A DNA stretch of 54,612 nt from a virus (lineage: Duplodnaviria > Caudoviricetes): positions 1-54,612 of the IMG/VR virus record IMGVR_UViG_3300032233_002766; one strand, given 5' to 3'. A model generated the notes under the pieces. The model saw only the letters and a program-made list of their open reading frames with translations, ran no database searches and was not told where the DNA came from. Made by a program: the position numbers and the translations under genes. The stretch's first letter is position 1; each line of letters opens with the position of its first letter. This document shows, in pieces, positions 1 to 30,334 of the stretch.

Positions 1-299
1 ACGGCTGGATCTGGTGCCTGGGCGTTCTCCCTGCCCAGGCAGGCGAGATACGTGGAACTGGTTGCCGTGGCCGGTGGCGCAGGGGGCGGCAGCGGAAGAC
101 GCGGCGCGGCGGGAACGAACCGAAGTGGCGGTGCCGGGGGCACACCTGGCGGCACGACAATTATCACCAGGCCAGTTACGGGTGGCGAACTGTTGTCTAT
201 TGCTGTCGGGGCCGGGGGCCTAGGCGGTGCAGGTCAAACGACAAATGACACAAACGGGAATGCGGGGAGCACGGGCGGGAACAGTAGCTGCTCATCTTC
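1..299. repeat. Terminal direct repeat/circular overlap with 54314-54612 (imperfect)
   Basis: Aligns without gaps to 54314-54612; about 20 mismatches in 1-216, and 217-299 identical. Confidence 0.95.
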
Positions 300-2086: not shown

Positions 2087-3388
2087 ATGCGCCTCGGCTA
2101 CGCCCGCTGCAGCACCGACGAACAGGCTGATGCCCTGGCGGCCCAAGTGGCGCGGCTGGATGGGGCCGGCTGTGAGCTGGTGGTGCAGGAGCTTGAAAGC
2201 GGCCGGAACAACGACCGCCCCGGCTTGGCGGAGGTGGTGGCCCTGGTGCGCTCCGGCCGCGTGCGCGAGCTGGTGATCACCCGGGCCGATCGCCTCGGGA
2301 GGGATGCCTCCTTTGCAGATGAGCTGCTGGCCCTCTGCGCCCTTCAGGGCGTCGCGGTGACAGCCCTCGACGGAGGCGCCATCGAAGCGGCCAGCCCGGC
2401 GGGGTTCCTGCAGGCCAGATTGCTCACCACCATGGCCGAAGTCGAATCGCGGATGCTGAGCCAGCGGCTGCGGCGTCAGTTCGATGTCTACCGGGCCCAG
2501 GGGCGCCACCTGCGGCGGAGAAAGCCCTTCGGGTATCGCGGCGGGCCCGATCACAAGCTGGAGCCCCACCCTGAGCACTGGCCCCAGGCGTTGCGGGTGA
2601 TCGAGGAGCTGCGGCGGCTGGGGTCGTTTTCGGCGGTGAGCCGGGGGCTGCCGGACTGGTGCAGCTGGACCCCGGCACCAAACAGCCTGCAGGCGTGGTT
2701 CTGCAATCCGGTGATCCGCGGGCACATCGGTCACCGCCTCGAGAAGGCCTCCGGCCAGGGCTGGAAGCGCCGGTGGGGGGAGATCCACTACGACCAGCAC
2801 CCGCCGCTGATCAGCGAAGCGGACTGGCAGGAGCTGGCGCAGCAGCTGCAGCAGACCCGCAACCTGTTTCGGGGCCCCGGCCAGCCGGCCCAGCATGCGC
2901 TCACCGGCCTACTGCGCTGCGCCACCTGCGGGCACCGGCTGCGGCGGAACACGGCGGCGGGTACGGCCTGGTGGCGGTGCCGGCATCGCCTCTGCAGCGA
3001 GCGGGCAGGGGTGCGTGAGGATCGAGTGCTGCCGGCGGTGATCGAGGCGTGCGTGGCGGCAGCCGATCGCCTGGCGGCAGCGGTGGCGGCCCCGCAGGCC
3101 GAGGATCCGGCGGTGGCGGCCAAACGGCGGGACCTGGAGCAGCTGGAGGCCTTGGCCCGGCGCAATCCGGCGGTGGTGCCGGCATGCGAGGCGCTACGGG
3201 CAGAGATCGCCGCCATGAAAAACCGCCCCCGGGTGGCGCCTGATGTGGAGGCGATCCGAGAGCGGCTGCAGGATCCGCGGCTGTTCAGCCTGGCGAGCCC
3301 GGCGGAACTGCGGGCGGTGCTGGCTGGTGTGCTGCTGGAGGTGCGGGTGGCGCCGGGGGGTGGGCTGGAGGTGGTGGAGAGGGTGTGA
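2087..3388 (+). CDS. Large serine recombinase (integrase)
   Basis: YARCST catalytic motif, ESGR..DRPGL, ADRLGR, recombinase domain, zinc ribbon LLRCATCG...CRHRLC and coiled coil. Confidence 0.93.
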   Translation: MRLGYARCSTDEQADALAAQVARLDGAGCELVVQELESGRNNDRPGLAEVVALVRSGRVRELVITRADRLGRDASFADELLALCALQGVAVTALDGGAIEAASPAGFLQARLLTTMAEVESRMLSQRLRRQFDVYRAQGRHLRRRKPFGYRGGPDHKLEPHPEHWPQALRVIEELRRLGSFSAVSRGLPDWCSWTPAPNSLQAWFCNPVIRGHIGHRLEKASGQGWKRRWGEIHYDQHPPLISEADWQELAQQLQQTRNLFRGPGQPAQHALTGLLRCATCGHRLRRNTAAGTAWWRCRHRLCSERAGVREDRVLPAVIEACVAAADRLAAAVAAPQAEDPAVAAKRRDLEQLEALARRNPAVVPACEALRAEIAAMKNRPRVAPDVEAIRERLQDPRLFSLASPAELRAVLAGVLLEVRVAPGGGLEVVERV

Positions 3389-5062: not shown

Positions 5063-5485
5063 TCAGGCATGAAGCTCCTCCTCTCGCTCGGCTCCGGTCT
5101 CGCCGCGCAGTTCCGCCAGCTCGGCCCGCAACCGCCTGGCCTCCTGCTCCGCCATCGCCCGCAGATCGTGGGGGCTGGCACCGCCGGGGCGCTGCACCGT
5201 GACCAGGATCGGCCCCTTGGTGGAGCCGAAGGTGAGTTGCAGGTAGTTAACGGCCTTGGGGTTGTCCTGGAGTAGGCCCAGGAACATGCCGGCGAGCAGC
5301 TGAGGGCCGGGGCCGGCACCGCCCACGGTTGCATTGTCCTTGTGAATCGCTATCCCGGTGAGCGTCGGGTTGGCGATGGCACCCAAAAGCCACTTGTTCG
5401 TCCGCTCAAGCCGCCGGATGGTGCGCCAAGGGGCCAGCAGGCGAGCCAGCGCACGCAGGAGGGAGGGACTGAGGTTGCCGCTCAC
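5063..5485 (-). CDS. Hypothetical protein
   Basis: GTG start overlapping the RecE-like stop; ...NYLQLTF...VTVQRPGGASPH. Confidence 0.55.
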   Translation of the reverse strand: MSGNLSPSLLRALARLLAPWRTIRRLERTNKWLLGAIANPTLTGIAIHKDNATVGGAGPGPQLLAGMFLGLLQDNPKAVNYLQLTFGSTKGPILVTVQRPGGASPHDLRAMAEQEARRLRAELAELRGETGAEREEELHA

Positions 5486-6651
5486 GCCACCACCTCCACC
5501 AGTCGCTCCATCCGCTGGTAGGCGTAGCCAGGCAGCTCCAGCGGCTGCGCGGCCGAGTCGTAGCCGGGCCACCAGCCGGAAGCGTCGCTCTGCACCACCT
5601 GATCGAGGGCACGGCGGGCCATGCGGCGGCCCAGTTCGGCCTGCTCATCGGAGAGCAGGTAGCGGCCGACGAACTCGGGCCTCGGGTGGGTCTTCTCTGT
5701 GGCGATGAACTCGAACTCGTAGCCGTTGGGGGCCACGATCAGGGCGCCTTCGGGCAGGCCCAGCAGCACCTCAAGCTCCGCCCGGCAGAACTGGGCGGCA
5801 TCGCGATACCAGGCGGCCGAGAGGCAGTAGTCAAAATTGGCGGCGGCGCGGCCGAAGTGGTCGGGGCCGGGGCCGGCATCCATGGCGCTCTTCAGGTCGC
5901 CGATCCAGAGGCGATCGCCCAGGAATCGCACCGCATCAAGGCGGGCTTTGCAGCGGGCCCCGGTGAGGGGGTCGATCCAGGTGAGGGTCAGCTCGTTCCC
6001 GGCCCTGTTCTGAGGGGTGTCGGCAAAACGGAGGCCGAGCGCCGGATGCTTGAGCACCGCGCTGGCGAGGGCGTCGCCGAGCTGCAGATCCTTGCGGCTC
6101 ACGCTCTGGGCGCTGGCGGCGCCGGGGTGCTCGGCCTCGAAGCGATCCCACCAGGCCTGCCGTGCCTTCGCGTCTTGCCAGTTGGTGTAGGTGGCCGTCT
6201 CGGTGTTGACGCTGCCGTCCTTCCGCGGCTTGGGCTTCTCCAGCTGCTTCGCGGTGGGCCGCTTGGGGGCGTCCTCGGGCAACACCAAGTAGCGCTGATA
6301 GAACACCTCGGGCTCAAGGAGGCGACAGTGGAACAGGTTGCCAATCAGGAATTGGCCGGCGTCCTCCGCAATCTCGCGATCGGGATTGATGAACTCGGCC
6401 CAGGCGTGCGCCGGGGTCTTGGAAAGCACCACCTTGAGCAGGCTGGCGTTCCAGCCCGGCAGTTCGTCGTAGGCCTCGCGGGGGAGACCGGAGAACACCT
6501 GCGGGGCACCGGTGAGGGCGTGGCCCCAGGCGGCGCTCCAGGCGGCCTCAGGGGTCAGCAGGGCTTCACCGCCCAAGGCGGGGTCGGGGGTCTGGACAGG
6601 GGCGGCGGCAAGGGTCGGTGTCGTGACAGGGGCGAGAGCAGTCGCGGTCAT
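5482..6651 (-). CDS. RecE/exonuclease VIII-like PD-(D/E)XK nuclease (DUF3799-type)
   Basis: NASLLK...TPAH, GNLFHCRLLEP, CKARLD...IGDLKS, AAWY; RecT in the same operon. Confidence 0.85.
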   Translation of the reverse strand: MTATALAPVTTPTLAAAPVQTPDPALGGEALLTPEAAWSAAWGHALTGAPQVFSGLPREAYDELPGWNASLLKVVLSKTPAHAWAEFINPDREIAEDAGQFLIGNLFHCRLLEPEVFYQRYLVLPEDAPKRPTAKQLEKPKPRKDGSVNTETATYTNWQDAKARQAWWDRFEAEHPGAASAQSVSRKDLQLGDALASAVLKHPALGLRFADTPQNRAGNELTLTWIDPLTGARCKARLDAVRFLGDRLWIGDLKSAMDAGPGPDHFGRAAANFDYCLSAAWYRDAAQFCRAELEVLLGLPEGALIVAPNGYEFEFIATEKTHPRPEFVGRYLLSDEQAELGRRMARRALDQVVQSDASGWWPGYDSAAQPLELPGYAYQRMERLVEVVA

Positions 6652-6794
6652 TGGCGGCAAAGCGATGGATTGCGTTCGGCAGCGGTCAGGGCCTGCCAGC
6701 CCTCTGGCTCCTCCAGGGGTTCGGCCTCGGGATCGGGATCGGGATCGGGCCAGTCGTCGAAGTCGTCCTCCGACGCGAGATAAAAGCGGCTCAC
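6648..6794 (-). CDS. Small acidic protein (48 aa; not in ORF track)
   Basis: VSRFYLASEDDFDDWPDPDPDPEAEPLEEPEGWQALTAAERNPSLCRQ; overlaps both neighbours by 4 nt. Confidence 0.55.
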   Translation of the reverse strand: MSRFYLASEDDFDDWPDPDPDPEAEPLEEPEGWQALTAAERNPSLCRQ

Positions 6795-7032: not shown

Positions 7033-7042
7033 TCGCTGGTTG
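7033..7042 (-). promoter_or_regulatory. CAACCAGCGA leader motif (putative sRNA target)
   Basis: 11 nt upstream of ATG 7021. Confidence 0.6.
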
Positions 7043-7078
7043 TTGGCCCGTGTCTGGACCCGGGATAAGCATAACCTT

Positions 7079-7591: not shown

Positions 7592-8422
7592 TCATAACGC
7601 AGATTGCAGGGTTTTTCTCAGGCGAACAAGCGCCCGATTTTTGAGGTTGCGCGTGCGCTCGCGGGAGAGCCCGACCTTCTCGCCGATGGCGTCGAGGGTT
7701 GCCGGATCGCAGCCGCCCAGGCCGAACTTGAGCCGCAGCACGGTGCGCTCGGTGGGCGTCAGCTGGAGCAGGCACCGCTGAAGGTGCATGGCATCAAGGC
7801 CCAGTTCCTCGGCGTAGGTCTCCTCGGCCGGCGGGACCGTCACCATGTTCCACAACCCCAGTTCCTCCGCATCGCCGCGGCGGTGATCGAGGCTGGCCAC
7901 TGACCGCACCCGCATGGTCAGGGCCACGGTCTCCACGTTGGTGCGGGCCTCTGTAGCGACCTGGTGCTGATCGATGGGCTCACCCTGGCGCCCCTGTGCC
8001 GCCCGCTCGTACCGCTTGGTGCCTTCGGCGGCGTGGATCGGGATCCTGATCGTGGAGTCCTGTTCGGCCACGGCCCGGCCGATCCAGTGCTCGATCCAGC
8101 GGTGGGAGTAGGTGGAGAACTTGTAACCCCGGCTGGGGTCGAACAGCTCAGTGGCGCGATTCAGGCCAAGGGCGCCCTCCTGGAACAAGTCCTCCATGGT
8201 GAGGGTCCGGCACCTCGGGTAGAACTTCCTGGCGATCCGCACCACCAGGCGCATGTTGGACATGATGAGCCTGTCTTTTGCCTTGCGAGCCAGGCGCTGT
8301 TGCCTGGCCGTGGCCCCTTCGGCGGAGCCCTCGCGGATCTGACGGGCCAGGAGGATTTCCTGTTTGGCGGTCAGCAGGGGGGCGCCGCAGGCCCTGGCCA
8401 TGTAGTCACCAACGCCGCTCAC
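7592..8422 (-). CDS. RNA polymerase sigma-70 factor, RpoD/group 2-like
   Basis: LLTAKQEILLA (region 1.2), SNMRLVVRIARK, DLFQEGALGL, FDPSRGYKFSTY, RIPIH, region 4 TLDAIGEKVGLSRERTR. Confidence 0.92.
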   Translation of the reverse strand: MSGVGDYMARACGAPLLTAKQEILLARQIREGSAEGATARQQRLARKAKDRLIMSNMRLVVRIARKFYPRCRTLTMEDLFQEGALGLNRATELFDPSRGYKFSTYSHRWIEHWIGRAVAEQDSTIRIPIHAAEGTKRYERAAQGRQGEPIDQHQVATEARTNVETVALTMRVRSVASLDHRRGDAEELGLWNMVTVPPAEETYAEELGLDAMHLQRCLLQLTPTERTVLRLKFGLGGCDPATLDAIGEKVGLSRERTRNLKNRALVRLRKTLQSAL

Positions 8423-8667
8423 GGACGGACTCCGTTGCTTGCGGGCTGGCGCAGGCGGCGGACTTGATCCTCGAGGGACCAAACCCGTCCGCGCAGTTGC
8501 GTCACCAACACGCCTTGCTCCCTCTTGGAGTCGTAGACGCCCTTGCAATACTGCCGGTGGAGCATCTGTTCATACTTGCGGCGAACCAAGTAAGCCAGAG
8601 CCTTATTCAGTAGAAAGACAACGCCAATTACTGCGGGGACGGCGATCAGGAGAGTGGCTGAGTTCAT
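8419..8667 (-). CDS. Small membrane-anchored hypothetical protein
   Basis: N-terminal TM segment; overlaps the sigma start. Confidence 0.55.
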   Translation of the reverse strand: MNSATLLIAVPAVIGVVFLLNKALAYLVRRKYEQMLHRQYCKGVYDSKREQGVLVTQLRGRVWSLEDQVRRLRQPASNGVRP

Positions 8668-8836: not shown

Positions 8837-10096
8837 TCAGACCAGCTCCGCCTGCAGGGCTTCGGTGGCCTCCTCGGCCGCGGGAGCAGGCGCAGGGGCG
8901 GCCTGCTGGGGCGCAGCGGCAGCGGTGCGGGCGGGCTGCTGACGGGCGGGGCGGGCCGGGGGTCCGGAGGGTTGGGTCTCGGGCTCAGGCTCGGCAGCCT
9001 GGGGCGTCAGGGCGGCCACCTCTTCGGCGGAGAGGATCGGTTCACCGGACTCGGCGCCACAGCCGCGGTTCCAGCGCTCCCGGCTGCCGGCATCGGCCAG
9101 CTTGGCCATCAGGCGGCTGTGATGCTCGGCCGGGATCTGGGCCAGCTCTGGCACCTGGAAGGCGGCGCAGGCATCAGCGCGGAAGGCGGCAACCCCGATC
9201 GGGGTGAGCTGGCGACCCAGGGCGGTGCTCAGGATCTCCTGCTGTTGTTCGGTCAGGGTCGCGACAGGGGCGGCGGCAGCGGCGATCTCGGGGGTCAGGG
9301 CGGCCGGGGCCTCAGCAGGCAACAACAGGTGGTCGATGTCCGTGTCCTGCCGGTGGCCCTGCTCGCCCCGTTCATCGAGGCTGGCGGCCTTGGCAATCTC
9401 CACCGATACCGGCAGATACTTGAACATCCGCCGAATCACCGTCTTGCGGCACATCTCATCAAAAGAAGAGATCCAGGGCGTATCCTTGTTGTACTTGATG
9501 GCGGTTTGGTAGCCCTGGCTGCCATCGCGCACGGCTTCCAGTTCGTAAACGTCCATCACTTCAAACTGGAAGCCGCCATCCATCAGACGGGCGACCGCAT
9601 AGGCGTGGGTCAGCTCACCACGCTCACCAGTGGCGGGGCGATGAATCAGGTCTTCCTGCAGGCCGAAGCGGTAATCAAATTGATCGTTGGCGTAGACGCA
9701 TCGTGCGCTGATGCTTTGGATCTGGCCGCTGCGGCGAGCCAGTTCGATCATGCCTTTGTAGCCAATCTGGAACTGACACTCATCCCGGTAAGGGATCAGG
9801 AAGGCGTGACCCAGGGCGCCGCCGGGCTCCAGGCCCAGCTGGGCACACGTGAAGATTGCGCCCAGCAGGCTGGCGGCGCTGCATTTCGCGAGCTTGGGAT
9901 TGCGGCGCACCTCAGAGAGCGCAATCCGCAGCAGCCGCTCAGGTGTTACGTGCTTCGGGAGCGCGAGCGCAATTTCGGGGCCATGCTTTTTCAGCATGGA
10001 TTCAATGGTGGTCACAGAGCCTGTGGCCACAGCTCCACCTGGCTGCTGGCGTTGCATCGGCCCTGCGCCATTGCGGCGGGCGATCGTGCTGGTCAT
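8837..10096 (-). CDS. recT: RecT ssDNA-annealing recombinase with C-terminal extension
   Basis: ALPKHVTPERLLRIAL, AQLGLEPG..LGHAFLIPY, QFQIGYKGMIELARRSGQI, W...FDEMCRKTVIRRMFKYLPVS. Confidence 0.95.
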   Translation of the reverse strand: MTSTIARRNGAGPMQRQQPGGAVATGSVTTIESMLKKHGPEIALALPKHVTPERLLRIALSEVRRNPKLAKCSAASLLGAIFTCAQLGLEPGGALGHAFLIPYRDECQFQIGYKGMIELARRSGQIQSISARCVYANDQFDYRFGLQEDLIHRPATGERGELTHAYAVARLMDGGFQFEVMDVYELEAVRDGSQGYQTAIKYNKDTPWISSFDEMCRKTVIRRMFKYLPVSVEIAKAASLDERGEQGHRQDTDIDHLLLPAEAPAALTPEIAAAAAPVATLTEQQQEILSTALGRQLTPIGVAAFRADACAAFQVPELAQIPAEHHSRLMAKLADAGSRERWNRGCGAESGEPILSAEEVAALTPQAAEPEPETQPSGPPARPARQQPARTAAAAPQQAAPAPAPAAEEATEALQAELV

Positions 10097-10103
10097 AGGT
10101 CTA

Positions 10104-10113
10104 TCGCTGGTTG
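10104..10113 (-). promoter_or_regulatory. CAACCAGCGA leader motif (putative sRNA target)
   Basis: 7 nt upstream of the recT ATG. Confidence 0.6.
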
Positions 10114-10260
10114 ATTGCCCCTAAGGGCCACCTAACCTTATCCAGACACGGACTGGATTGCGAATAGCCCTGTCACATTCCGTAACCTAAGTAAAGTCGG
10201 TCCTGATACGGCATGGCTGTCGCCCTGTTGTCCTAGGCTGCGGGTTCGATTCAAGTCGCG

Positions 10261-10482
10261 ATGCGAATCACGATTGAAAACGCCGCCGAGCTGGCGGTTG
10301 TACGCAGCCGCCTGCCGGCATTGGCCTACCAGCTGGGCCCGACCGTTGAACTCACCCTGGCCCTCCCCTGCGGGCGGCTGATCCGGCACCACCGCGGTGG
10401 CCTGGAGCCTGCAGCGCGAGTGGCCTCGATGAACGAGCGGCTGGAAGCGATCCTCGATCAGGACTCCTTCGGCAGCCGGTAG
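10261..10482 (+). CDS. Small hypothetical protein, divergent from recT
   Basis: 73 aa ORF after an AT-rich intergenic region. Confidence 0.45.
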   Translation: MRITIENAAELAVVRSRLPALAYQLGPTVELTLALPCGRLIRHHRGGLEPAARVASMNERLEAILDQDSFGSR

Positions 10483-11216
10483 AGCCGTTCCCGCACGTCG
10501 CCGGCCTCGATGCAGTCTGCAGCATCCACCACGCCCAGCACCTCCCCCAGGGCCGGCAGCTCCTCCACCAGGGCCTCACCGGTGAACACCTCGAAGCCCA
10601 CGGCCACCATGCGCAGCCGCTGGCGGCGGGTTTCCTCGGTGGTGGGGTAGACCTCCATCAGCTTGTCCATCGCCTGAGAGATCGTCAGGCGGCGATCCCT
10701 GGCCCAGCCCTGGATGATGCGGCTGATGTTCCCCGAAAGGCGCCGCGCCTCCATATCGCTGATCGCGCCATCATCCAAGCCCTCGGGCGTGATCCTCCCC
10801 AGCCAGGCCAGGTAGAGGCCACCGGCATCGAGGGGGTGGCGGGTCTGGGGGTGCCGCAGGAAGAACGGCTCGGGCGGCAGGACCAGGCCAGCGGGGATCG
10901 GCCCGAAGCTGGGCAGATCATCCACCTCGGGGCTGCTCACGCCCGCCGCCTGCGCCAGCCGCAGATTGACCTGACCGAGGGCGTCGATTGTCCGTGGACC
11001 GGCCTTCACCAGGGTGCCAGTGCGCAGGTAACTGATCTGACTGGTGCTCAGCCATGTCAGCCCCCAAGGGTTGGCCCACTGGCTCAGCTTCACCAGCTGT
11101 TCATGGGTCAGGTTGTTGCGGGAGAGGAGCATCCGCACACCCTTGGACATGACCTGAACGCCCCGAGCCAGGCGGTCTAACCCATGTTCCGATCCAATGA
11201 AGTCTTCTCTGGACAT
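10458..11216 (-). CDS. Putative repressor/regulator with XRE-like HTH
   Basis: LLSRNNLTHEQLVKLS...LSTSQISYLRTG resembles an XRE HTH with an insertion; no peptidase motif seen. Confidence 0.5.
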   Translation of the reverse strand: MSREDFIGSEHGLDRLARGVQVMSKGVRMLLSRNNLTHEQLVKLSQWANPWGLTWLSTSQISYLRTGTLVKAGPRTIDALGQVNLRLAQAAGVSSPEVDDLPSFGPIPAGLVLPPEPFFLRHPQTRHPLDAGGLYLAWLGRITPEGLDDGAISDMEARRLSGNISRIIQGWARDRRLTISQAMDKLMEVYPTTEETRRQRLRMVAVGFEVFTGEALVEELPALGEVLGVVDAADCIEAGDVRERLYRLPKES

Positions 11217-11282
11217 AACAGCCCCTGTTCCGACCCCACGTTGAGGGAAAGACTATACCGAAGCGGGGTTTAGGTGCAATTT

Positions 11283-11347
11283 TGCAGCAGAAAGCCCCAG
11301 ACCAACCAGCGACGGAAAATCCGGGGCTTCCTGGGCGGCGAACCGCC
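11283..11347 (-). ncRNA. Predicted small RNA: UUCG hairpin plus 16-bp hairpin displaying UCGCUGGUU
   Basis: On the minus strand: GGCGG-UUCG-CCGCC, then a 16-bp stem with four G-U pairs that form only on this strand; TAGGCT -10-like box at 11354-11359. Confidence 0.6.
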
Positions 11348-11371
11348 GGAACTAGCCTAAGGTCAACACAG

Positions 11372-11400
11372 AAAAAAAGGGGGACATTTCAGCCCCCCCC
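11372..11400 (-). terminator. Intrinsic terminator after the AbrB-like gene
   Basis: G-run/C-run stem followed by T7 on the minus strand. Confidence 0.7.
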
Positions 11401-11433
11401 CGCAAATGGGCTTTGTGCTGATCTTGATAAGGA

Positions 11434-11859
11434 TCAATCCTCGGCGGCTTCACCAGCTGGCACCAGGCGGATTTGTTTCCGGCCCAACTTGATCTCGAAC
11501 TCATCGCCGGGCTTCAGGCCAAGCATGGCGGTGTAGGCCTTGCCGACCATCAGGTTTCCGTTGAATTGCACCTTCGTTTGGAAACTCAGCTTCCGCCCCG
11601 GGCGGCCCGGCTCATCACCGGCGGTGCCGCCGCCCAGGTTCACGCCCTTGGCGTTCAGCAGGGCTTCATAAAAGGCGGTGAAGTTCAGGCGCTCGGTGCC
11701 GTCCTTCCTGGTGCTCACGTAGCCGCAGGCCCGCACCAGATCGGATTTGGAGGCATCGCCCATCTCCTTCACCTTGGCCTGCAGTTCGGCGCCGGTCAGG
11801 GGGCCAGAGGGAGCGGTCGCCTGCGCCGCGGCGGGAGGCTCAAGAGTGCATGCAGTCAC
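11434..11859 (-). CDS. Cyanobacterial AbrB-like transcriptional regulator (cyAbrB)
   Basis: LTGAELQAKVKEMGDASKSDLVRACGYVS...RLNFTAFYEALLNAKG...GRKLSFQTKVQFNGNLMVGKAYTAMLGLKPGDEFEIKLGRKQIRL. Confidence 0.92.
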   Translation of the reverse strand: MTACTLEPPAAAQATAPSGPLTGAELQAKVKEMGDASKSDLVRACGYVSTRKDGTERLNFTAFYEALLNAKGVNLGGGTAGDEPGRPGRKLSFQTKVQFNGNLMVGKAYTAMLGLKPGDEFEIKLGRKQIRLVPAGEAAED

Positions 11860-12161
11860 GATTGAAAAGCAGAAGCAATAGCAATCCTAGTCAAGACAGG
11901 CAGGATTGGCCATTCATCGCGCAGACTTGCCGCCTTTTTTAGGCTTGGGGCTCGGTGCGGTGGCCCTCTTCTTCGCCATCGGTGGTGTGCTCATCCGCCT
12001 CGGCTTCACCTGCCGCGACGGCCTCGATGCGGTCGATCTCCTCCAGGAGGGGCAGCAGGGGCTCGATGATGCCCCAGAAATCCATCTCGATCTCCACCAG
12101 GGGCCATCGCAGGGCTCCCATCGTGTGGGCAACGGCCGAGGGGAGGGGCCGCAGCGGCGAA

Positions 12162-12461
12162 TCAGGGGCGCGGGTGCTTCTTTTCCTCTTTGGGCCCGAC
12201 CCGGAAGATCAGGTAACCGGGGGTGCCGGATGTTCCTGGCTCGAAGTCAACCAGACCGCAGCGCTTCAGCTCCTGCAGGATGGCGCTGACGCCACCGCGA
12301 TTGCCGTGCTGAAATATCAGCATGAGTTGCTGGACCATAACCCGATCGGCAGGGCCGGGGTTCAGGCGGGCCAGGGCCAGGCAGTTGATGATGGCCCTGT
12401 TGGGGATGCGGTGGCGGTTGGCCAGGAGGTGGGCGATCAAAGCGGTCTCAGCCATCACCAT
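12162..12461 (-). CDS. Winged-HTH-like hypothetical protein
   Basis: VSAILQELKRCGLVDF pattern. Confidence 0.45.
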   Translation of the reverse strand: MVMAETALIAHLLANRHRIPNRAIINCLALARLNPGPADRVMVQQLMLIFQHGNRGGVSAILQELKRCGLVDFEPGTSGTPGYLIFRVGPKEEKKHPRP

Positions 12462-12712
12462 TCCCCCTGCTGGGTGCAGCGGCGCACCTTCGCGCCAGGG
12501 CCGGCCAGTTCGATCGCGGTGAGCACCGCATCAGCAGCGTCGGCAGCGAACAGGCGAAGCGTGATCGGCTTGCTGTTGTCCGGTCGATCGAGCAGCACCC
12601 GATAGGAGCGGGGTGGCGTCACTGGGCCAATTCGGCAGCAGGGGGCGGCGGGGGTGGGCACGGTGGGCGAGGGGAGGCGCGGGGGAATGGGTGTGGCCTG
12701 CTCAGGCATCAA
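12455..12712 (-). CDS. Hypothetical protein
   Basis: Overlapping member of the leftward operon. Confidence 0.5.
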   Translation of the reverse strand: MMPEQATPIPPRLPSPTVPTPAAPCCRIGPVTPPRSYRVLLDRPDNSKPITLRLFAADAADAVLTAIELAGPGAKVRRCTQQGEW

Positions 12713-13310
12713 CCCGCCAGGCCTGCGCGGCCCCTTGCGCCGTCAACCGGCTGGGGTGAAGGTCCGTGGCTTCGATCGGGCCGGGCTGCCCGAAGCCTTT
12801 GTGGGCCTCCTCTGTGGCGGCGCGGTGATGAGCACGCTTCAGGGTTGCCGGGTCTTCGTGCCAGTACACGCAGGCGCCGCGGCGGAAGTAGGAGTAGTTC
12901 ATGGGGAGGAGAGAAAGGGGTGATGGCCCAGGCGTGGTACGCCTCAAGGACGGCCAGGGGCCTGGGCTCTATCGGGTTCAGTCTGCCGGGGCTGGCTCCG
13001 GCGGGCCGTGGCGATGGGTCAGCCTTCGCTTTTGCTTTGATCTTCAGCGGCTGCGTTGATCCTGTCCTGCAGGTCTGTGAACTGCTCCGGCGGCCGTGAG
13101 TGATCACCACCACTCGCTCAGCTCGGCTCTGGCGTCGGCCATGCCGGCGTCGATGGTGGCGGCCAGCTGGCGCCCCTCCGCGGCCAGCGCCAGGCCCCGA
13201 TCAATCGAGGCGGAGTACGCCGCCATCGCGGTGTCGATTTCCGCCAGGAGGGCGGCGGTTTCGGCGGGGGTGGCGTGTTCCATGGCGCTGGCGTGTGGCG
13301 GGGAAGAGGG

Positions 13311-13688
13311 TCAGGCAGCCGCCTTGCGGCGGGCGGCTGTTTGGCTGTGGCGGCCGGGGGCCGCCTTGCGCTTCCGTGGAGCGTTGGCCACCGCCGGCAG
13401 GGCCACCGGAGCGACCGGGGCAGGAGCAGCAGGGGTAACCTCGGCCGCAACCACCACCGGAGCCGGTGCAGCAGCAGGCGTCAGGCCCAGCACGCCAACC
13501 CACAGGGCGGCGAGCTGATCGTTGCGCTCCTCGATCACCAAGCGCAGCTGGCGGCCCAGGTCGTAGGCGGCCTCACCGGCCAGCCAGGCCCAGGTGATCA
13601 GCAGGGCGACCACCGCACCGACCACCCGAGCTGAGCGGTGGAGGGCGGGGCCGTGATCGGTCAGCAGGAAAGAGGAAAGGGATTTCAT
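13311..13688 (-). CDS. Hypothetical membrane protein, first gene of a leftward operon
   Basis: TM segment and basic C-terminus; preceded by CAACCAGCGA. Confidence 0.6.
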   Translation of the reverse strand: MKSLSSFLLTDHGPALHRSARVVGAVVALLITWAWLAGEAAYDLGRQLRLVIEERNDQLAALWVGVLGLTPAAAPAPVVVAAEVTPAAPAPVAPVALPAVANAPRKRKAAPGRHSQTAARRKAAA

Positions 13689-13695
13689 GGGGGTT

Positions 13696-13705
13696 TCGCT
13701 GGTTG
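13696..13705 (-). promoter_or_regulatory. CAACCAGCGA leader motif (putative sRNA target)
   Basis: 7 nt upstream of ATG 13688. Confidence 0.6.
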
Positions 13706-13955
13706 AGCCCCGGGGCCTCTCAGGGCCTCACCGGGAGTGGATTGGTTCGTGGTGATCTCGATTGGCATCGCCCACCTCCACACAGTAACACCTGAAAGGC
13801 ATAACTGAGCGCCCTGCCCCCTCCATCAGCCCAGAACCCGCTCACCGTAAAGGGTTTGGGATTATGTTGCTTTGTTACTTAGGGCAATCTGGGCCCCCCG
13901 CGCATAGCCCTTCCAGGTCTGGACAGCCATAATGAAGGGGACCAGCCAGCACACC

Positions 13956-14309
13956 ATGACTGCCTTTCCCCCCTTGGCCGAGCGGCCCGATTTCGATGCG
14001 GATCCCGACGCGGTTGCGGCCTTTCCGCCCGAGCCTTCCGAGAAGGTGGCCGAACTGCTCGACGTGATCGATGCGGCCGAGATCGGCCTGGACGAGCTGC
14101 TGCAGCTGACCCTATGCAACATCCAGGAGCTGGCCAGCATCTACGGCGACGCCGGCGACAACTCGCAAGACCTCGACACGGTGGCCTTCACCACCGCTGC
14201 TGTGACCCGGCTGCAGGTTGCCTCCAATGTGCTGGCGGAATTGCTGCCGGACGACAGCGAAGACGAGGAGGAAGGCGAGGGCCTGGAGGAGGAGGGCGAG
14301 GCTGCCTAA
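13956..14309 (+). CDS. Very acidic small protein
   Basis: D/E-rich with only three K/R residues; stand-alone orientation with a CATAAT box at 13928-13933. Confidence 0.7.
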   Translation: MTAFPPLAERPDFDADPDAVAAFPPEPSEKVAELLDVIDAAEIGLDELLQLTLCNIQELASIYGDAGDNSQDLDTVAFTTAAVTRLQVASNVLAELLPDDSEDEEEGEGLEEEGEAA

Positions 14310-17757: not shown

Positions 17758-17770
17758 GTAGAATCATGGG

Positions 17771-17862
17771 GTAGGAGAGACAGATCACCGCTCCTTTCGC
17801 CCGGAAAGCTCGGGAGAGGTGATCACGGAGGGCCCGGCCGAAAGGTCGGGCTTTCTGCTGCA
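17771..17862 (+). ncRNA. Predicted counter-transcribed two-hairpin RNA upstream of the replication genes
   Basis: TAGAAT at 17759-17764; stem GATCACC...GGTGATC; GCCCGGCC-GAAA-GGTCGGGC followed by TTTCT. Confidence 0.45.
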
Positions 17863-19727: not shown

Positions 19728-19746
19728 CTATGCTCTATGCGGATAC

Positions 19747-19756
19747 CAACCAGCGA
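19747..19756 (+). promoter_or_regulatory. CAACCAGCGA leader motif (putative sRNA target)
   Basis: 4 nt upstream of GTG 19761. Confidence 0.55.
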
Positions 19757-19760
19757 CCCC

Positions 19761-22539: not shown

Positions 22540-22549
22540 CAACCAGCGA
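22540..22549 (+). promoter_or_regulatory. CAACCAGCGA leader motif (putative sRNA target)
   Basis: 7 nt upstream of ATG 22557 (MQATAPPR..., 22557-22712). Confidence 0.6.
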
Positions 22550-22708
22550 AAATCTCATGCAGGCAACCGCTCCACCTCGCATCATTCGCAGGCCTGCAGC
22601 CGATGGTCAGCCCGCCCGCTTTGAGGCCGCCTGGGCGCCCGACGCCCCCGCAACCCCCCGCCAGCGCCTGATGGCTGCTCAGCAGAAGCGCCGCCAGCGG
22701 GGTGGGAG

Positions 22709-23341
22709 ATGAGCGGCGACGACATTAGAAGCCCCGGCTCCCAGTTCGGCGGCCCCATCCCCGACTGGCGCATCCGTCAGCTCGCCGAGGCTGGGATGAT
22801 CAGCCCGTTTGAGCCGAGGAAGGTGCGGCAAGTGGATCTTCCCGGCAGCTTCCGGCGCCCCGTTATCAGCTACGGCTGTTCCTCCTATGGCTACGACCTC
22901 ACCCTGTCACCAAACGACTTCCGCGTGTTCCGCCACGTGCCGGGCCTGATCGTTAACCCGAAGGCCTTCGATGATCGCTGCCTGGCACCGGCAGAGCTGC
23001 AACGGGACCAGTGGGGGCAGTTCTTCATCCTCCCGGCCCACACCTACGCTCTCGGCGTGGTGATCGAGCGCCTGAAGCTCCCCGCCAACATCACCGCCCA
23101 GTTCATCGGCAAGAGCACCTACGCCCGCTGCGGGATCATCGTGAACCTCACCCCCGGCGAAGCCGGCTGGGAAGGTCACCTGACCCTGGAGATCAGCAAC
23201 AGCAGCGGCGCCGACTGCCGCATCTACGCCAACGAAGGCATCTGCCAAGCCCTCTTCTACGAGGGGGCGCCCTGTGACCAGCCCTACGGGGATGGGAAGT
23301 ATCAGGGGCAAGCGGATGGTGTCACTTTGGCGAGGGTTTGA
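22709..23341 (+). CDS. dcd: dCTP deaminase
   Basis: GMISPFEP, ISYGCSSYGYDL, GKSTYARCGIIVNLTPGEAGWEGHLTLEISN, YANEGICQ, GKYQGQ. Confidence 0.95.
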   Translation: MSGDDIRSPGSQFGGPIPDWRIRQLAEAGMISPFEPRKVRQVDLPGSFRRPVISYGCSSYGYDLTLSPNDFRVFRHVPGLIVNPKAFDDRCLAPAELQRDQWGQFFILPAHTYALGVVIERLKLPANITAQFIGKSTYARCGIIVNLTPGEAGWEGHLTLEISNSSGADCRIYANEGICQALFYEGAPCDQPYGDGKYQGQADGVTLARV

Positions 23342-24057: not shown

Positions 24058-25631
24058 TGCCACCCCTCAACCTCCTCCACCACGCTGCCGCCCGCGCCTA
24101 CGACGGGTTCCCGGTGCTGGCAGCGATCGAGGAGGCCAGGGCGGCTGAGCTGGCGGAGCCGGTGGAGGCCTACAAGGCCAGTTTTGGCGACTACGTGGCA
24201 GCAATCGCACCGGCTGATTTTAAGTTCACCAGGCATACCGAAAGGCTGATTGAGATCGGTCAACGGATCGTGGATGGCAAACTGCCGCGGGTGATGATCG
24301 AGCTGCCGCCGCGGCATTACAAGAGCACGATCTTCAGCCGGTTCCTGCCGGGCTGGTTTCTGCGGCGGTTTCCAGAGCGCACCTTTGGCTTGGGGGCCCA
24401 CACCCAAACACTGGCCGCTGAGTTCGGCGAGGCCGCCCGCGGCTACTTTGAGGCTTCCGGTGGTGCCCTGTGCCCCAGCAGCAGCGGCAAGGATCGATGG
24501 AAGACCAGCGGCGGCCTCGGTGGGATGTGGGTTGCAGGCGTCGGCAAGGGCACCGGCCTGCCAGCTCATTTTTTGGGGGTGGATGATCCCATTAAGGGCA
24601 GGGAGGAGGCCGAAAGCGTCGCCTACAGGCGCCGGCTGTGCAACTGGTATTCGACGGTCCTCAACACCAGGGAAGAACCCGGCTGCCTCAAGCTGATCAC
24701 CCACACCCGATGGCTTCATGACGCGGACCTGATCGGCTGGCTGCTTGCCAAGGTTGATGAGCTGGACAGGGAGGGGCACGGGGCCATGGCGGAGCGGTGG
24801 CACGTGATCTCTATGCCGCTGATCGCTGAGCCGATCGTGAAGCCGCTGCCAGCCCTGTGCACCAGGGAGCCAGATCACCGCAAGCCAGGCGAGGCGCTCG
24901 ATCCCACCCGATATGACGAGGAGTGGGCGGAGGCCAAAAAACGCAACACCCCTACCCGCGACTGGGAGGCGCTGTATCAGCAGAACCCCTCCGCCGGGGA
25001 AGGAACCGTGTTCTTCCTGGATCGGATGCGGTTCTACGGCAAGCCCGCATGGCCAGGCCTACCTGATGATCCCCAACTGCCGGATCGGTTCATCCGCACG
25101 ATCCTCTCGGTGGACTGCACCTTTGACGACACCGCCGGCAGCGACATGGTGGCCATGACCCTGTGGGGTCAGAACCCTCAGGGCGCCTGGCTGCTGGACC
25201 TGGTGAATGAGCGCCTGGACTTCCCTGCCACCGTGGCGATGATCCGCTCAATGCACACCCGCCACCGCTTCGGGGAGCTGCTGATCGAGAAGAAGGCCAA
25301 TGGCGCCGCTGTGATCAAGACCCTCACGCAGGGTGCCCATGGCTACCATGTGGTTGCTGCCGGAGTTGGCGATATGGGCGGCAAGGAAAGCCGCGCCAAT
25401 GCCGCCTCTGTCGAGTTCAACAACGGCCGCGTGTTCCTGCCGCGCAATGCCCCGTGGAGCAACGTGGTTCGTGATCAGTTGCTGCAGTTCCCTGCTGCAA
25501 CCTTCGATGACATCGTGGACAGCACCAGCCAGTTGTTGATCTACATCGCCGGCACCGGCCCGATCAGCTTCAGCACCGTCAGCTATGGCCACGCCGCGCC
25601 AGGAGCGATAGCCCCCACGGTGCAGTGGTAA
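24057..25631 (+). CDS. terL: Terminase large subunit
   Basis: Walker A LPPRHYKST, Walker B GVDDPIK, THTRW, ALYQQNP, nuclease SVD...IEKKANG...DDIVDS. Confidence 0.95.
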   Translation: MPPLNLLHHAAARAYDGFPVLAAIEEARAAELAEPVEAYKASFGDYVAAIAPADFKFTRHTERLIEIGQRIVDGKLPRVMIELPPRHYKSTIFSRFLPGWFLRRFPERTFGLGAHTQTLAAEFGEAARGYFEASGGALCPSSSGKDRWKTSGGLGGMWVAGVGKGTGLPAHFLGVDDPIKGREEAESVAYRRRLCNWYSTVLNTREEPGCLKLITHTRWLHDADLIGWLLAKVDELDREGHGAMAERWHVISMPLIAEPIVKPLPALCTREPDHRKPGEALDPTRYDEEWAEAKKRNTPTRDWEALYQQNPSAGEGTVFFLDRMRFYGKPAWPGLPDDPQLPDRFIRTILSVDCTFDDTAGSDMVAMTLWGQNPQGAWLLDLVNERLDFPATVAMIRSMHTRHRFGELLIEKKANGAAVIKTLTQGAHGYHVVAAGVGDMGGKESRANAASVEFNNGRVFLPRNAPWSNVVRDQLLQFPAATFDDIVDSTSQLLIYIAGTGPISFSTVSYGHAAPGAIAPTVQW

Positions 25632-30300: not shown

Positions 30301-30334
30301 CGGGAAAACTGCGGCTGTCACCATCAACCAGCGA
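30301..30334 (+). promoter_or_regulatory. CGGGAAAACTG (30301-30311) plus CAACCAGCGA (30325-30334)
   Basis: Both motifs precede ATG 30340. Confidence 0.65.

What the first reader, a model, noticed from the sequence alone, without database searches (positions are those of the whole stretch)
11283..11359. Candidate phage sRNA whose loop is antisense to a 10-mer at the start of six phage genes (multi-target RNA repressor)
Seen: on the minus strand, between the AbrB terminator and the XRE-like gene, a TAGGCT -10-like box (11354-11359) is followed 6 nt later by GGCGG-UUCG-CCGCC. Next comes the 16-bp stem CAGGAAGCCCCGGAUU/GGUCUGGGGCUUUCUG with the 14-nt loop UUCCGUCGCUGGUU. The UUCG loop and four G-U pairs work only on this strand. 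The loop is the complement of CAACCAGCGA. I found that 10-mer six more times, always in sense orientation and 4-11 nt before a start codon: 7033(-), 10104(-, recT), 13696(-), 19747(+), 22540(+) and 30325(+). At 19744-19757 the match extends to 13 nt. A rough estimate at this GC gives well under one copy by chance. Known precedents for RNA-based phage control are P1/P7 C4 RNA and P4 CI RNA. Inference: a trans-acting sRNA blocks translation initiation at the heads of several lytic operons, acting as an RNA layer of lysogeny/immunity in a cyanophage. I know of no description of this motif.
Basis: partly seen in the sequence, partly recalled or inferred. Interest (0 to 1): 0.85.

Follow-up and report, generated by a model that had tools for sequence, protein, structure and literature searches.

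The report
Phage small RNA targeting gene-start tags
A group of uncultured, cyanophage-like viruses carries a small RNA gene whose exposed loop mirrors a ten-letter tag placed just before the start of about six of the phage's own genes; in a distant relative the loop and all the tags have changed together, so one RNA probably controls a whole set of phage genes.

Summary
CAACCAGCGA occurs 7 times (0.14 expected). Six copies are sense and lie 4-11 nt before start codons. The seventh is antisense, in the 14-nt loop of a two-hairpin element on the minus strand (11283-11347).

Homologues occur in 9 related viral contigs and 11 metagenome fragments. Across 14 distinct sequences, 257 of 258 stem cells pair and 8 of 19 pairs show compensatory changes. 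The 13 G-U cells (counted from that table) fit only this strand. A TAnnnT box always lies 6-7 nt upstream.

Decisive new result: in relative G011 the loop reads ...GGGUG instead of ...GGUUG. All six leader tags there read CACCCAGCGA and none reads CAACCAGCGA.

Best reading (about 0.6): a trans-acting antisense sRNA that masks a start-proximal leader tag at several operon heads. Not shown: a transcript, repression, or any lysogeny/immunity role. A DNA-binding protein with seven sites is not excluded.

There is no Rfam match, and my searches found no published description. The kind is known (P1 c4, P4 CI, GcvB), but this multi-operon form is new. Earlier unchecked notes of this scan describe similar "anti-leader hairpins" in crAss-like and Bacteroidota phages. 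I also found an anti-SAS hairpin loop in Cluster K1 mycobacteriophages.

The parts
11354..11359 (-). -10-like box TAGGCT of the predicted sRNA gene
   Evidence: In alignments A3/A5 the T, A and final T of a TAnnnT hexamer are invariant in 14 of 14 homologues. Forms seen: TAGGCT, TAGAGT, TAGAAT, TAGGGT, TAAGGT, TATCCT, TAAACT, TACTAT. The box always lies 6-7 nt before hairpin 1. No -35 element was found.
11283..11347 (-). Predicted sRNA body of about 65 nt: 5' hairpin, anti-tag hairpin, invariant 3' tail UUUCUGCUG
   Evidence: Fold. Covariation. Covariance model R1 finds one strong copy in the window (88.9 bits). No Rfam family matches. The 5' and 3' ends are inferred, not mapped.
11334..11347 (-). 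Hairpin 1, GGCGG-UUCG-CCGCC
   Evidence: All 5 pairs are standard in 14 of 14 sequences, and 3 pairs show compensatory changes. The loop is UUCG or CUUG in 11 of 14 (read). That these are stable RNA tetraloop classes is recalled knowledge.
11288..11333 (-). Hairpin 2: 16-bp stem with a 14-nt loop; a possible terminator-like 3' structure
   Evidence: 14 pairs, 99.5% of cells paired, 5 pairs with compensatory changes. There are 13 G-U or U-G cells (my count from that table); 12 were counted on the 13-row alignment. On that alignment the opposite strand pairs only 226 of 239 cells. The simple terminator scan did not call it.
11303..11312 (-). Loop core UCGCUGGUUG, exact antisense of the leader tag
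   Evidence: The central 8 nt CGCUGGUU are invariant in the 13 homologues of A3 and are kept in L191, while the rest of the loop varies. The 15th homologue, L182, has one change (U to G) that is matched by all six of its targets.
7033..7042 (-). Target tag 1, 11 nt before the ATG at 7021 (76-aa ORF, followed by an exonuclease VIII-like gene at 5482-6660)
   Evidence: An orthologous tag is present in the relatives.
10104..10113 (-). Target tag 2, 7 nt before the recT ATG at 10096. This operon continues into a sigma-70-family gene at 7592-8548.
   Evidence: The RecT leader carries the tag in every relative whose RecT start is held.
13696..13705 (-). Target tag 3, 7 nt before the ATG at 13688 (125-aa ORF, at the head of the run of small genes ending in the AbrB-like gene)
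19747..19756 (+). Target tag 4, 4 nt before the GTG at 19761 (49-aa ORF). Complementarity to the sRNA extends to 13 nt (19745-19757).
22540..22549 (+). Target tag 5, 7 nt before the ATG at 22557 (51-aa ORF whose stop overlaps the start of the dCTP deaminase gene, ATGA at 22709)
30325..30334 (+). Target tag 6, 5 nt before the ATG at 30340 (102-aa basic protein). It is also preceded by the late motif CGGGAAAACTG at 30301-30311.
11376..11401 (-). Intrinsic terminator of the upstream AbrB-like gene (11434-11859), which separates that gene from the sRNA
   Evidence: An equivalent GC hairpin with a T-run is present in most relatives.
11250..11279 (-). Promoter-like TTGCAC-N16-TATAGT for the downstream 252-aa gene (10458-11216), so the sRNA is a separate unit between a terminator and a promoter
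   Evidence: Read. The letters TAG.CTT are invariant in alignment A1. This is an inference; the consensus scan did not call it.

Best explanation
The window is a complete 54.6-kb temperate phage genome, cyanosiphovirus-like. Between the terminator of its AbrB-like gene and the promoter of the next gene lies a small gene for a non-coding RNA of about 65 nt.

The RNA starts about 7 nt after a TAnnnT box. It has a 5' tetraloop hairpin, then a long hairpin whose 14-nt loop displays UCGCUGGUUG, and it ends in the invariant tail UUUCUGCUG.

The leaders of about six transcription units carry the complementary tag CAACCAGCGA. The units are recT-sigma factor, the exonuclease operon, the small-gene/AbrB operon, the dCTP-deaminase unit, a 49-aa ORF and one late basic protein. 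Each leader is built the same way: a -10-like box, a small 5' hairpin, the tag, 3-11 nt, then the start codon.

I infer that the loop pairs with the tag through a loop-to-single-strand 'kissing' contact of 8-11 bp. Because the tag lies inside the ribosome's footprint at the start codon, pairing would block or reduce translation initiation of the first gene of each unit, and of downstream genes through coupling or mRNA decay. One RNA would thus co-regulate a phage regulon.

Shown: the structure, the strand, conservation, the complementarity, the positions of the tags, and concerted change of loop and tags. Inferred: transcription, pairing in vivo, the sign of the effect, and its timing (immunity, early shut-off or dampening).

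The tag probably also has a role of its own, such as a C/A-rich initiation enhancer or a protein site. Its end positions stay conserved even where the loop cannot pair with them.
For: 1. The motif is far above chance and is all-or-none: 7 exact copies against 0.14 expected, and only one 1-mismatch copy.

2. Position. In whole-record searches of the window and 8 relatives with the same loop, 37 non-loop exact copies were found, and 33 have ATG/GTG starting 3-11 nt downstream. Of the other 4:
- one has an ATG overlapping the tag;
- one has ACG at the orthologous place;
- two are one orthologous site with no evident start.
 Every record has exactly one antisense copy, always in the hairpin loop.

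3. RNA structure (14 distinct homologues):
- 257 of 258 cells paired.
- 8 of 19 pairs have changes on both sides.
- 0 of 500 shuffles reach these values; slid controls pair only 44-62%.
- On the 13-row alignment there are 12 G-U cells, so the other strand pairs only 226 of 239.
- Gaps of 1-2 columns within the element argue against coding.

4. A TAnnnT box is invariant in its key letters 6-7 nt upstream, and the upstream gene has its own terminator.

5. Concerted change. In G011 (65 kb, complete; neighbouring protein 60% identical) the loop is UCGCUGGGUG. All 7 hits to CAMCCAGCGA there read CACCCAGCGA: one loop copy plus six copies 3-8 nt before an ATG, RecT included. None reads CAACCAGCGA. 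Conversely CACCCAGCGA occurs 0 times in the window and 0, 2, 0, 0 and 0 times in G003, G005, G007, G004 and G006.

6. A second new homologue, G012, has different compensated stems (GCCUCC/GGAGGC), the same loop, and 5 of 5 tags before starts.

7. The same leader cassette precedes unrelated genes in G002, G003, G004 and G007. The tag therefore belongs to the leader, not to the gene.

8. One target variant (G006, CAACCAGCGG) would keep pairing through a G-U wobble.
Against: - No transcript evidence of any kind is available.
- No -35 element and no canonical U-tract terminator were called by the simple scans.
- Concerted change of loop and tags is equally predicted if a sequence-specific DNA-binding protein recognises the same 10 bp at all seven places.
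- Where the loop's end positions drifted, the tags did not follow. In L043/L044 the loop complement is TAACCAGCGT but the tags read CAACCAGCGA and AAACCAGCGA. In L045 it is AAACCAGCGA but 3 of 3 tags read CAACCAGCGA. Something other than this RNA therefore also constrains the tag.
- Covariation at the flanking +1 position is inconclusive.
- A 10-bp duplex is short, and an RNAduplex scan of the GC-rich genome does not rank the six sites above background.
- Predicted accessibility of the tags is only average (unpaired probability 0.46-0.78).
- In the analogous Cluster K mycobacteriophage system, three phages keep 10 or more exact start-associated sequences although the hairpin loop has diverged. 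Such tags can therefore work without an antisense loop.
Confidence: 0.6

Rival explanations
1. The RNA is real and pairs with the tags, but the outcome is not translational repression. Pairing could protect or stabilise the leaders, direct processing, cause premature termination (as with P4 CI RNA), or activate translation by remodelling the leader next to the 5' hairpin.
For: This shares all the structural and covariation evidence. The leaders carry a conserved 5' hairpin only 2-4 nt before the tag, so pairing would abut a structured element. The sRNA and several target leaders have similar TAGnnT or TAnnnT -10 boxes. That suggests co-expression rather than opposite regulation.
Against: The tag ends 3-11 nt before the start codon, which is the classic place for occlusion of the 30S subunit (established sRNA knowledge). 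Folding gives no sign that the tag is sequestered and needs opening: it is mostly unpaired in the MFE structures.
Confidence: 0.15
2. The 10-bp sequence is a DNA site for a phage-encoded, sequence-specific DNA-binding regulator, for example the 252-aa protein next door, the AbrB-like protein or the sigma factor. The seventh site happens to lie between the arms of a terminator-like hairpin. No RNA-RNA pairing is involved.
For: A duplex site reads the same in either orientation, so this model also predicts the concerted switch of all seven copies in G011. The all-or-none conservation of the full 10 bp in the tags fits a protein site, including positions the loop cannot pair with in L043-L045. 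Regulator genes flank the locus.
Against: - 39 of 43 non-loop copies across 10 records are in sense orientation at a fixed short distance (3-11 nt) from a start codon. Their distance to the -10-like boxes is variable, roughly 20-35 nt.
- The odd copy is always antisense and always centred in the loop of a hairpin with RNA-type covariation, G-U pairs and an adjacent UUCG/CUUG tetraloop hairpin.
- In the loop copy only the ends drift while the central 8 nt are kept. That is how a helix behaves, not a protein site shared with six fully conserved copies.
Confidence: 0.12
3. The tag is an autonomous 'start-associated sequence', read by the host ribosome or by a host or phage RNA-binding factor as an initiation signal in a host that rarely uses Shine-Dalgarno sequences. 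The hairpin is merely a cis element (a second terminator or insulator, or part of the next gene's leader). Its loop complementarity then has no trans function.
For: Most genes of this phage lack a Shine-Dalgarno sequence. The tag is C/A-rich (8 of 10 letters), like known translation enhancers (PMC3879156, abstract read). In Cluster K phages SAS persist without a complementary loop in 3 of 11 phages examined. The tag's end positions are conserved independently of the loop.
Against: A host-read signal gives no reason for the loop to change in step with six tags. It also gives no reason for the loop's central 8 nt to be invariant in 14 of 15 homologues while stems and other loop positions vary. 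No complement of 7 nt or more to the tag exists in the 16S rRNA of the one cyanobacterial genome I could test; that genome is not the host, and 23S was not tested.
Confidence: 0.08

Closest known systems
c4 antisense RNA of phages P1/P7 (immI) and the related CI RNA of satellite phage P4
   Same: A phage-encoded, small, structured, trans-acting RNA whose exposed loop sequences pair with short sites in phage leader RNAs to control a regulatory operon. [quoted passage not shown]
   Different: There is no sequence or structure match to any Rfam family at gathering scores or at E<=10 in the region. Here a single loop faces 5-7 dispersed leaders in different operons on both strands. From recall, c4 uses two loops against two sites in one transcript. 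This RNA has its own -10-like box rather than being processed from the target operon's leader (processing of c4/CI is also recalled). The host is cyanobacterial-type, not enterobacterial.
Start-Associated Sequences (SAS) of Cluster K mycobacteriophages and Cluster EF Microbacterium phages
   Same: An asymmetric, highly conserved short motif a few bp (3-7) before start codons of many genes, in one orientation, often after larger intergenic gaps, and absent from the host (PMC3203893 passages; PMC7302621 passages). [quoted passage not shown] I find that this odd copy lies in a hairpin loop on the gene strand, just as here.
   Different: SAS contain the Shine-Dalgarno core AGGAG; the cyanophage tag does not. 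SAS number 11-19 per genome and are 13 bp long; here there are 5-7 tags of 10 nt. Their function is stated to be unknown in both papers. In Amgine, Amohnition and SirPhilip the hairpin loop has diverged while SAS are intact. In the cyanophage clade the loop core always matches the tags.
GcvB sRNA silencing of C/A-rich (ACA) translation enhancers in enterobacteria
   Same: A G/U-rich exposed region of one sRNA pairs with C/A-rich elements just upstream of many start sites. Those elements themselves stimulate initiation, so the sRNA works by masking an enhancer (PMC3879156, abstract read). Here the loop core is 8 of 10 G/U and the tag 8 of 10 C/A.
   Different: GcvB is chromosomal and Hfq-dependent (recalled), and its targets are degenerate C/A-rich stretches. 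Here the tag is an exact 10-mer, the RNA is phage-encoded, and the seed sits in a hairpin loop. No homology was found.
sar RNA of P22, OOP RNA of lambda and other phage antisense RNAs listed in the 2025 review PMC12197685
   Same: Small phage RNAs that reduce translation of phage regulatory genes by pairing at or near the start region (passages read).
   Different: Those RNAs are cis-encoded or single-target. In the passages and table rows I saw, none has a multi-operon regulon defined by an identical tag. The only cyanophage RNA listed there is CfrI, a cis-antisense to psbA.
'Anti-leader hairpin RNAs' noted earlier by this scan in crAss-like, Flavobacteria-type and Bacteroidota phages (e1-5348569, e1-5997994, e1-5908337 and others)
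   Same: One conserved hairpin whose invariant loop mirrors a short motif just before the start codons of several phage genes. One note reports mirror and addresses changing together in about 60 relatives.
   Different: Those are unpublished AI notes that I did not check. They concern other phage groups, other motifs and other positions (mostly the 3' ends of late operons). Here the element is a separate unit in the early region with its own -10 box.

Membership tests
Rfam C4 antisense RNA family (P1/P7 c4, P4 CI) | Match to the family's covariance model | tested here: not met
   No family reached its gathering score anywhere in the window. With E<=10 on 11230-11400, C4 is not among the 13 weak matches, all of which score <=13.7 bits.
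Rfam C4 antisense RNA family (P1/P7 c4, P4 CI) | Loop sequences complementary to short sites in phage leader RNA | tested here: met
   The loop core is the exact complement of the 10-mer in six leaders, with concerted change in G011.
Rfam C4 antisense RNA family (P1/P7 c4, P4 CI) | Processed out of the leader of the very operon it controls (recalled feature) | not testable with these tools
   Here a terminator lies upstream and a conserved TAnnnT box lies 6-7 nt before hairpin 1, which suggests a separate gene. No RNA data are available.
Start-Associated Sequences (SAS) | Conserved asymmetric motif a few bp upstream of many start codons, in one orientation | tested here: met
   6 of 6 in the window at 4-11 nt. 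39 of 43 across 10 records at 3-11 nt.
Start-Associated Sequences (SAS) | Contains the Shine-Dalgarno core and can pair with the 3' end of 16S rRNA (PMC3203893) | tested here: not met
   CAACCAGCGA has no GGAG or AGGA. No complement of 7 nt or more exists in a cyanobacterial 16S rRNA; that genome is not the host.
Start-Associated Sequences (SAS) | A single reverse-oriented copy not linked to a gene start (K1 phages; PMC3203893) | tested here: met
   Each of the 10 viral records holds exactly one antisense copy, in the hairpin loop. The same holds for Anaya, Adephagia, Angelica and CrimD.
GcvB-type sRNA masking C/A-rich enhancers | G/U-rich single-stranded seed against C/A-rich sites upstream of starts | tested here: met
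   This is a match of composition only: the loop core is 8 of 10 G/U and the tag 8 of 10 C/A. Enhancer activity of the tag was not tested.
GcvB-type sRNA masking C/A-rich enhancers | Homology to GcvB; Hfq dependence | tested here: not met
   No Rfam match. Hfq dependence cannot be tested here.
Plain intrinsic terminator | GC-rich stem, loop of 3-8 nt, then a run of at least 5 T | tested here: not met
   The scan calls only the upstream AbrB terminator. Hairpin 2 has a 14-nt loop and is followed by UUUCUGCUG. The loop's central 8 nt are invariant, which a terminator does not need.

The most novel reading that the evidence does not exclude
'Address tag plus one master antisense RNA' may be a general, convergently evolved way for phages to put a whole set of operon heads under one post-transcriptional switch. 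It would be favoured where Shine-Dalgarno pairing is weak (cyanobacteria, Bacteroidota) but also present in actinobacteriophages. On this reading the cyanophage RNA is a clean case, with loop and six tags co-varying. The unexplained Start-Associated Sequences of Cluster K mycobacteriophages, an open question since 2011, would be the same system. Their single reverse SAS copy would be the loop of an anti-SAS RNA, which some lineages have since lost or retargeted.
Probability: 0.3. Interest if true: 0.9.

Novelty: new variant of a known kind. Interest (0 to 1): 0.8.

Why it matters
Phage gene timing is usually explained by promoters, sigma factors, repressors and antiterminators. Known phage antisense RNAs act on one gene or one operon. 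Here a single 65-nt RNA appears to address 5-7 transcription units through an identical 10-nt tag at the translation start. The units cover recombination, a phage sigma factor, nucleotide metabolism and a virion protein.

The evidence is unusually clean for a purely computational case, because the loop and all tags switched one base pair together in a diverged relative. If confirmed, this would have four consequences:

- It would be the first trans-acting regulatory sRNA regulon in a cyanophage.
- It would give a portable 'tag plus RNA' module for synthetic control of translation in cyanobacteria.
- It would offer a testable mechanism for start-associated sequences in actinobacteriophages, whose role has been described as unknown since 2011 (PMC3203893) and again in 2020 (PMC7302621).
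- It shows that short exact repeats at start codons, together with one inverted copy in a hairpin loop, form a searchable signature for such regulons.

Tried and rejected
- RNA evidence: the look-up of sequencing runs on 9000-14000 listed no RNA holder.
- Rfam: no match at gathering scores or at E<=10.
- Close DNA relatives among isolated phages: none by megablast or blastn.
- P-SS2: it has a 25%-identical homologue of the 252-aa protein next to its RecT, but no intergenic space for an sRNA. I dropped this line.
- Prophage or host search in genome contigs: the protein scan found none. A loose DNA pattern gave 97 stretches. The 80 that were returned as loci were scored with model R1, and 0 matched at E<=0.01. 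The other 17 were not examined. The host remains unidentified.
- A pattern for homologues with any loop added only L064, which reads as a chance match in coding sequence.
- A duplex-energy scan of the genome with the loop is not discriminative in this GC-rich DNA. I did not use it as evidence.
- Leader accessibility was uninformative.
- The structure of the 252-aa neighbour came out at mean pLDDT 55.6, too poor for a fold search, so none was run. The label 'XRE-like' stays unverified.
- 16S rRNA pairing of the tag: a Rivularia MAG 16S holds only two 6-mers, about what chance gives. That genome is not the host, and 23S was not tested.
- Flank (+1) covariation between loop and tags is inconclusive, because A is common at +1 everywhere.
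- Model R1 gave a second weak hit (21.1 bits) at 2779-2870(-), antisense inside the integrase gene, with non-standard pairs. I judged it chance.
- The second sRNA-like element (17766-17862) has no multi-copy complement in the genome.
- Our-findings look-up by sequence returned nothing.
- Literature: searches (too loose to be useful), and the passages read, showed no description of this motif or RNA, nor of an anti-SAS RNA. The ZoeJ RNA-seq paper is not in the library. The supplements of PMC3203893 (Fig. S3, sites in Adephagia, Angelica and CrimD) were not seen; I located those sites myself.
Full report
WHAT THE WINDOW IS. The window is the whole record: G000 has one contig of 54,612 bp, with 66.6% GC. 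Its ends repeat over 299 nt at 93% identity. It encodes:
- a serine integrase (2087-3388 +);
- an exonuclease VIII-like protein (5482-6660 -);
- a sigma-70-family factor (7592-8548 -);
- RecT (8837-10096 -);
- an AbrB-like regulator (11434-11859 -, PF14250);
- RusA, an O-like replication initiator, a DNA methyltransferase and a dCTP deaminase.

Its large terminase is closest, at about 35% identity, to the cyanosiphoviruses P-SS2, S-CBS2 and S-CRES1-3. 'Temperate cyanophage-like siphovirus' is a fair label. The host was not identified.

The minus strand folds into GGCGG-UUCG-CCGCC followed by a 16-bp stem with a 14-nt loop. The energy is -44.4 kcal/mol (z = -3.4), against -35.1 (z = -2.0) for the plus strand.

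CAACCAGCGA occurs 7 times where 0.14 are expected, and 0 of 100 shuffles reach 7. There is a single 1-mismatch copy, inside a gene. Six copies are sense and lie 11, 7, 7, 4, 7 and 5 nt before the start codons of RecT and five small ORFs with coding-type GC3. The seventh is the loop, in antisense.

Lack of a Shine-Dalgarno sequence is not special to these genes, because most genes here have none.

RELATIVES. I used the 252-aa protein encoded just downstream of the hairpin as a handle. It led to nine related viral contigs (G001-G007, G011, G012) and eleven metagenome fragments.

All of them carry the element at the same place. It lies after the terminator of the upstream gene and before the promoter-like region of the 252-aa gene.

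In an alignment of 14 distinct sequences, my two-hairpin structure gives the following:
- 257 of 258 cells are paired.
- 8 of 19 pairs have changes on both sides.
- 0 of 500 shuffles reach the observed values.
- Only 44-62% of cells pair when the partners are slid.

G-U or U-G cells are tolerated throughout: 12 on the 13-row alignment and 13 by my count from the table. Because of them the opposite strand would pair only 226 of 239 cells. The RNA strand is therefore the window's minus strand.

Hairpin 1 has a UUCG or CUUG loop in 11 of 14 sequences. A TAnnnT hexamer with invariant T, A and final T always lies 6-7 nt before hairpin 1. The tail TTTCTGCTG is invariant. Gaps of one or two columns in the element exclude a coding reading.

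The central eight loop letters CGCUGGUU are invariant in the 13 homologues of alignment A3 and are kept in L191, while the other loop positions vary. No Rfam family matches.

THE TAGS ARE A LEADER FEATURE. I searched whole records: the window and the eight relatives with the same loop. They hold 37 non-loop exact copies.
- 33 have ATG or GTG starting 3-11 nt downstream.
- One has an ATG overlapping the tag.
- One has ACG at the orthologous position.
- Two are the same orthologous site without an evident start.

The flanks are diverged, but the layout is constant: a -10-like box, a small GC hairpin (mostly with a GNRA-type loop), 2-4 nt, the tag, then the start codon. The same leader cassette precedes unrelated genes in G002, G003, G004 and G007. 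Each record has exactly one antisense copy, and it is always the loop.

CONCERTED CHANGE. The most diverged relative is G011 (65 kb, complete; neighbouring protein 60% identical). Its homologue scores 54.6 bits with model R1, and its loop core is UCGCUGGGUG, a U-to-G change.

A search for CAMCCAGCGA in that genome gives seven hits. All read CACCCAGCGA and none reads CAACCAGCGA. One is the loop. The other six lie 3-8 nt before an ATG, including the RecT orthologue.

Conversely, CACCCAGCGA is absent from the window. It is also absent from four of five relatives tested; G005 has two copies, which is near the background seen in the controls.

Loop and six tags therefore changed one base pair together. 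This rules out chance. It also argues strongly against a tag that is read only by host machinery, with the loop as a bystander.

WHAT REMAINS OPEN. Concerted change is also what a DNA-binding protein with seven identical duplex sites would produce. I rank that rival lower for three reasons.
- The tags keep a fixed distance to start codons, not to promoters.
- They are always in sense orientation.
- The odd copy is always antisense and centred in the loop of a hairpin with RNA-type covariation.

The loop copy also behaves like a helix. Only its end positions drift (L043/L044 and L045), while the six tags stay intact. The same observation cuts the other way too. The tags keep their end letters even where the loop cannot pair with them, so the tag probably has a function of its own.

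A useful model is GcvB. Its G/U-rich seed masks C/A-rich elements that are themselves translation enhancers (PMC3879156, abstract). Here the tag is 8 of 10 C/A and the loop core 8 of 10 G/U.

I found no complement to the tag in a cyanobacterial 16S rRNA, although that genome is not the host. No transcript data could be obtained. Nothing links the RNA to lysogeny specifically. One target is a late gene that also carries the late motif.

A PARALLEL IN MYCOBACTERIOPHAGES. The 2011 Cluster K paper describes 13-bp Start-Associated Sequences 3-7 bp before many start codons. Their function was unknown. [quoted passage not shown] A 2020 paper still calls the role unclear (PMC7302621, passages).

I fetched Anaya. 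It has 16 forward copies and one reverse copy at 2 mismatches or fewer, against 0.52 expected. The reverse copy lies in a 385-bp intergenic region. On the gene strand it forms the 10-nt loop CCUCCUAUCC of a strong hairpin (151 nt, -76.6 kcal/mol, z = -4.5). The same holds in Adephagia, Angelica and CrimD. The region is conserved in 137 phage records.

The parallel is not complete. Of 11 aligned phages, Amgine, Amohnition and SirPhilip have a diverged loop yet keep 10 or more exact SAS each. In that group, therefore, the tags do not depend on the loop. This supports the idea of an antisense RNA as an accessory regulator of an autonomous start tag. It is also a caution for the cyanophage reading.

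EARLIER NOTES OF THIS SCAN.
- The tag at the Shine-Dalgarno position, which I confirm.
- Twelve copies of a late motif, which I confirm.
- A second sRNA-like element at 17766-17862(+) with the same 3' end. I confirm the shared GGGCTTTCTGCTGCA and a two-hairpin fold (-52.1 kcal/mol, z = -2.9). I found no multi-copy complement for it.

On other genomes the scan has several unchecked notes of 'anti-leader hairpin RNAs' in crAss-like, Flavobacteria-type and Bacteroidota phages. I did not test them and do not count them as evidence.

VERDICT. The conserved structured element and its specific relation to the leader tags are well supported by comparative data. Its transcription, trans-acting repression and any role in immunity are inferences.

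It is not a member of any described RNA family. It works most like P1 c4 or P4 CI RNA and like GcvB, but with a multi-operon, exact-tag architecture that I did not find in print. I class it as a new variant of a known kind, with interest 0.8.

Noticed in passing
window 17766-17862 (+): A second sRNA-like element in the divergent intergenic region next to the replication-initiator gene. It has a TAGAAT box, two hairpins (-52.1 kcal/mol, z = -2.9) and the same 3' end GGGCTTTCTGCTGCA as the first RNA. The stem below the GC hairpin again uses G-U pairs valid only on the given strand. No repeated complement to it exists in the genome.
   Followed up: partly
L065:31850-31900 (Mycobacterium phage Anaya, record 59849-59899); also L066, L067, L068: In Cluster K1 mycobacteriophages the single reverse-oriented Start-Associated Sequence lies in the 10-nt loop (CCUCCUAUCC) of a conserved hairpin on the gene strand, in an intergenic region near the right end. 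It is present in 8 of 11 aligned phages. Amgine, Amohnition and SirPhilip have other loops but intact SAS.
   Followed up: partly
window 1437, 26592, 29410, 30301, 31178, 34685, 38699, 40468, 48366, 50177, 51060, 52796 (+): Twelve exact copies of CGGGAAAACTG, all on the + strand (0.02 expected), mostly 20-35 nt before late genes. This looks like a late promoter or activator motif. The phage encodes its own sigma-70-family factor (7592-8548 -), which lies in the operon headed by the recT tag.
   Followed up: partly
leaders in L007, L010, L028, L057 (G002, G004, G003, G007): One nearly identical leader cassette (box, GGGGAGGG...CCCTCTCC hairpin, tag) precedes four unrelated first genes. The leader behaves as a portable module.
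   Followed up: no
G003:C1:48997-49006 (-) and G006:C1:25204-25213 (+) (full 10-mer; one search lists its 8-nt core at 25205-25212): A conserved exact copy of the tag with no evident start codon after it. It may be an internal or non-canonical target.
   Followed up: no
G004:C1:49670-49679 (-): The orthologue of target 1 has ACG where its relatives have the ATG start, 11 nt after the tag.
   Followed up: no
window 22557-22712 (+) and 22709-23341 (+): Tag 5 heads a 51-aa ORF whose stop overlaps the start of the dCTP deaminase gene (ATGA). Control of the small ORF would pass to the enzyme by translational coupling.
   Followed up: no
window 1-299 and 54314-54612: A 299-nt direct terminal repeat that is only 93% identical. 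This is unusual for an assembly overlap or a true terminal repeat.
   Followed up: no
window 7055-7067 (-) and 10141-10153 (-): A 13-nt stretch near the -10-like box of the recT leader (GTCCGTGTCTGGA) is the reverse complement, in 12 of 13 letters, of a stretch in the target-1 leader (TCCAGACACGGGC). These could be operator half-sites (read; coordinates derived from it).
   Followed up: no
G005:C1:56278-56287 (+) and 59656-59665 (-): Two copies of the variant tag CACCCAGCGA occur in a genome whose loop matches the CAACCAGCGA form. Their context was not examined.
   Followed up: no
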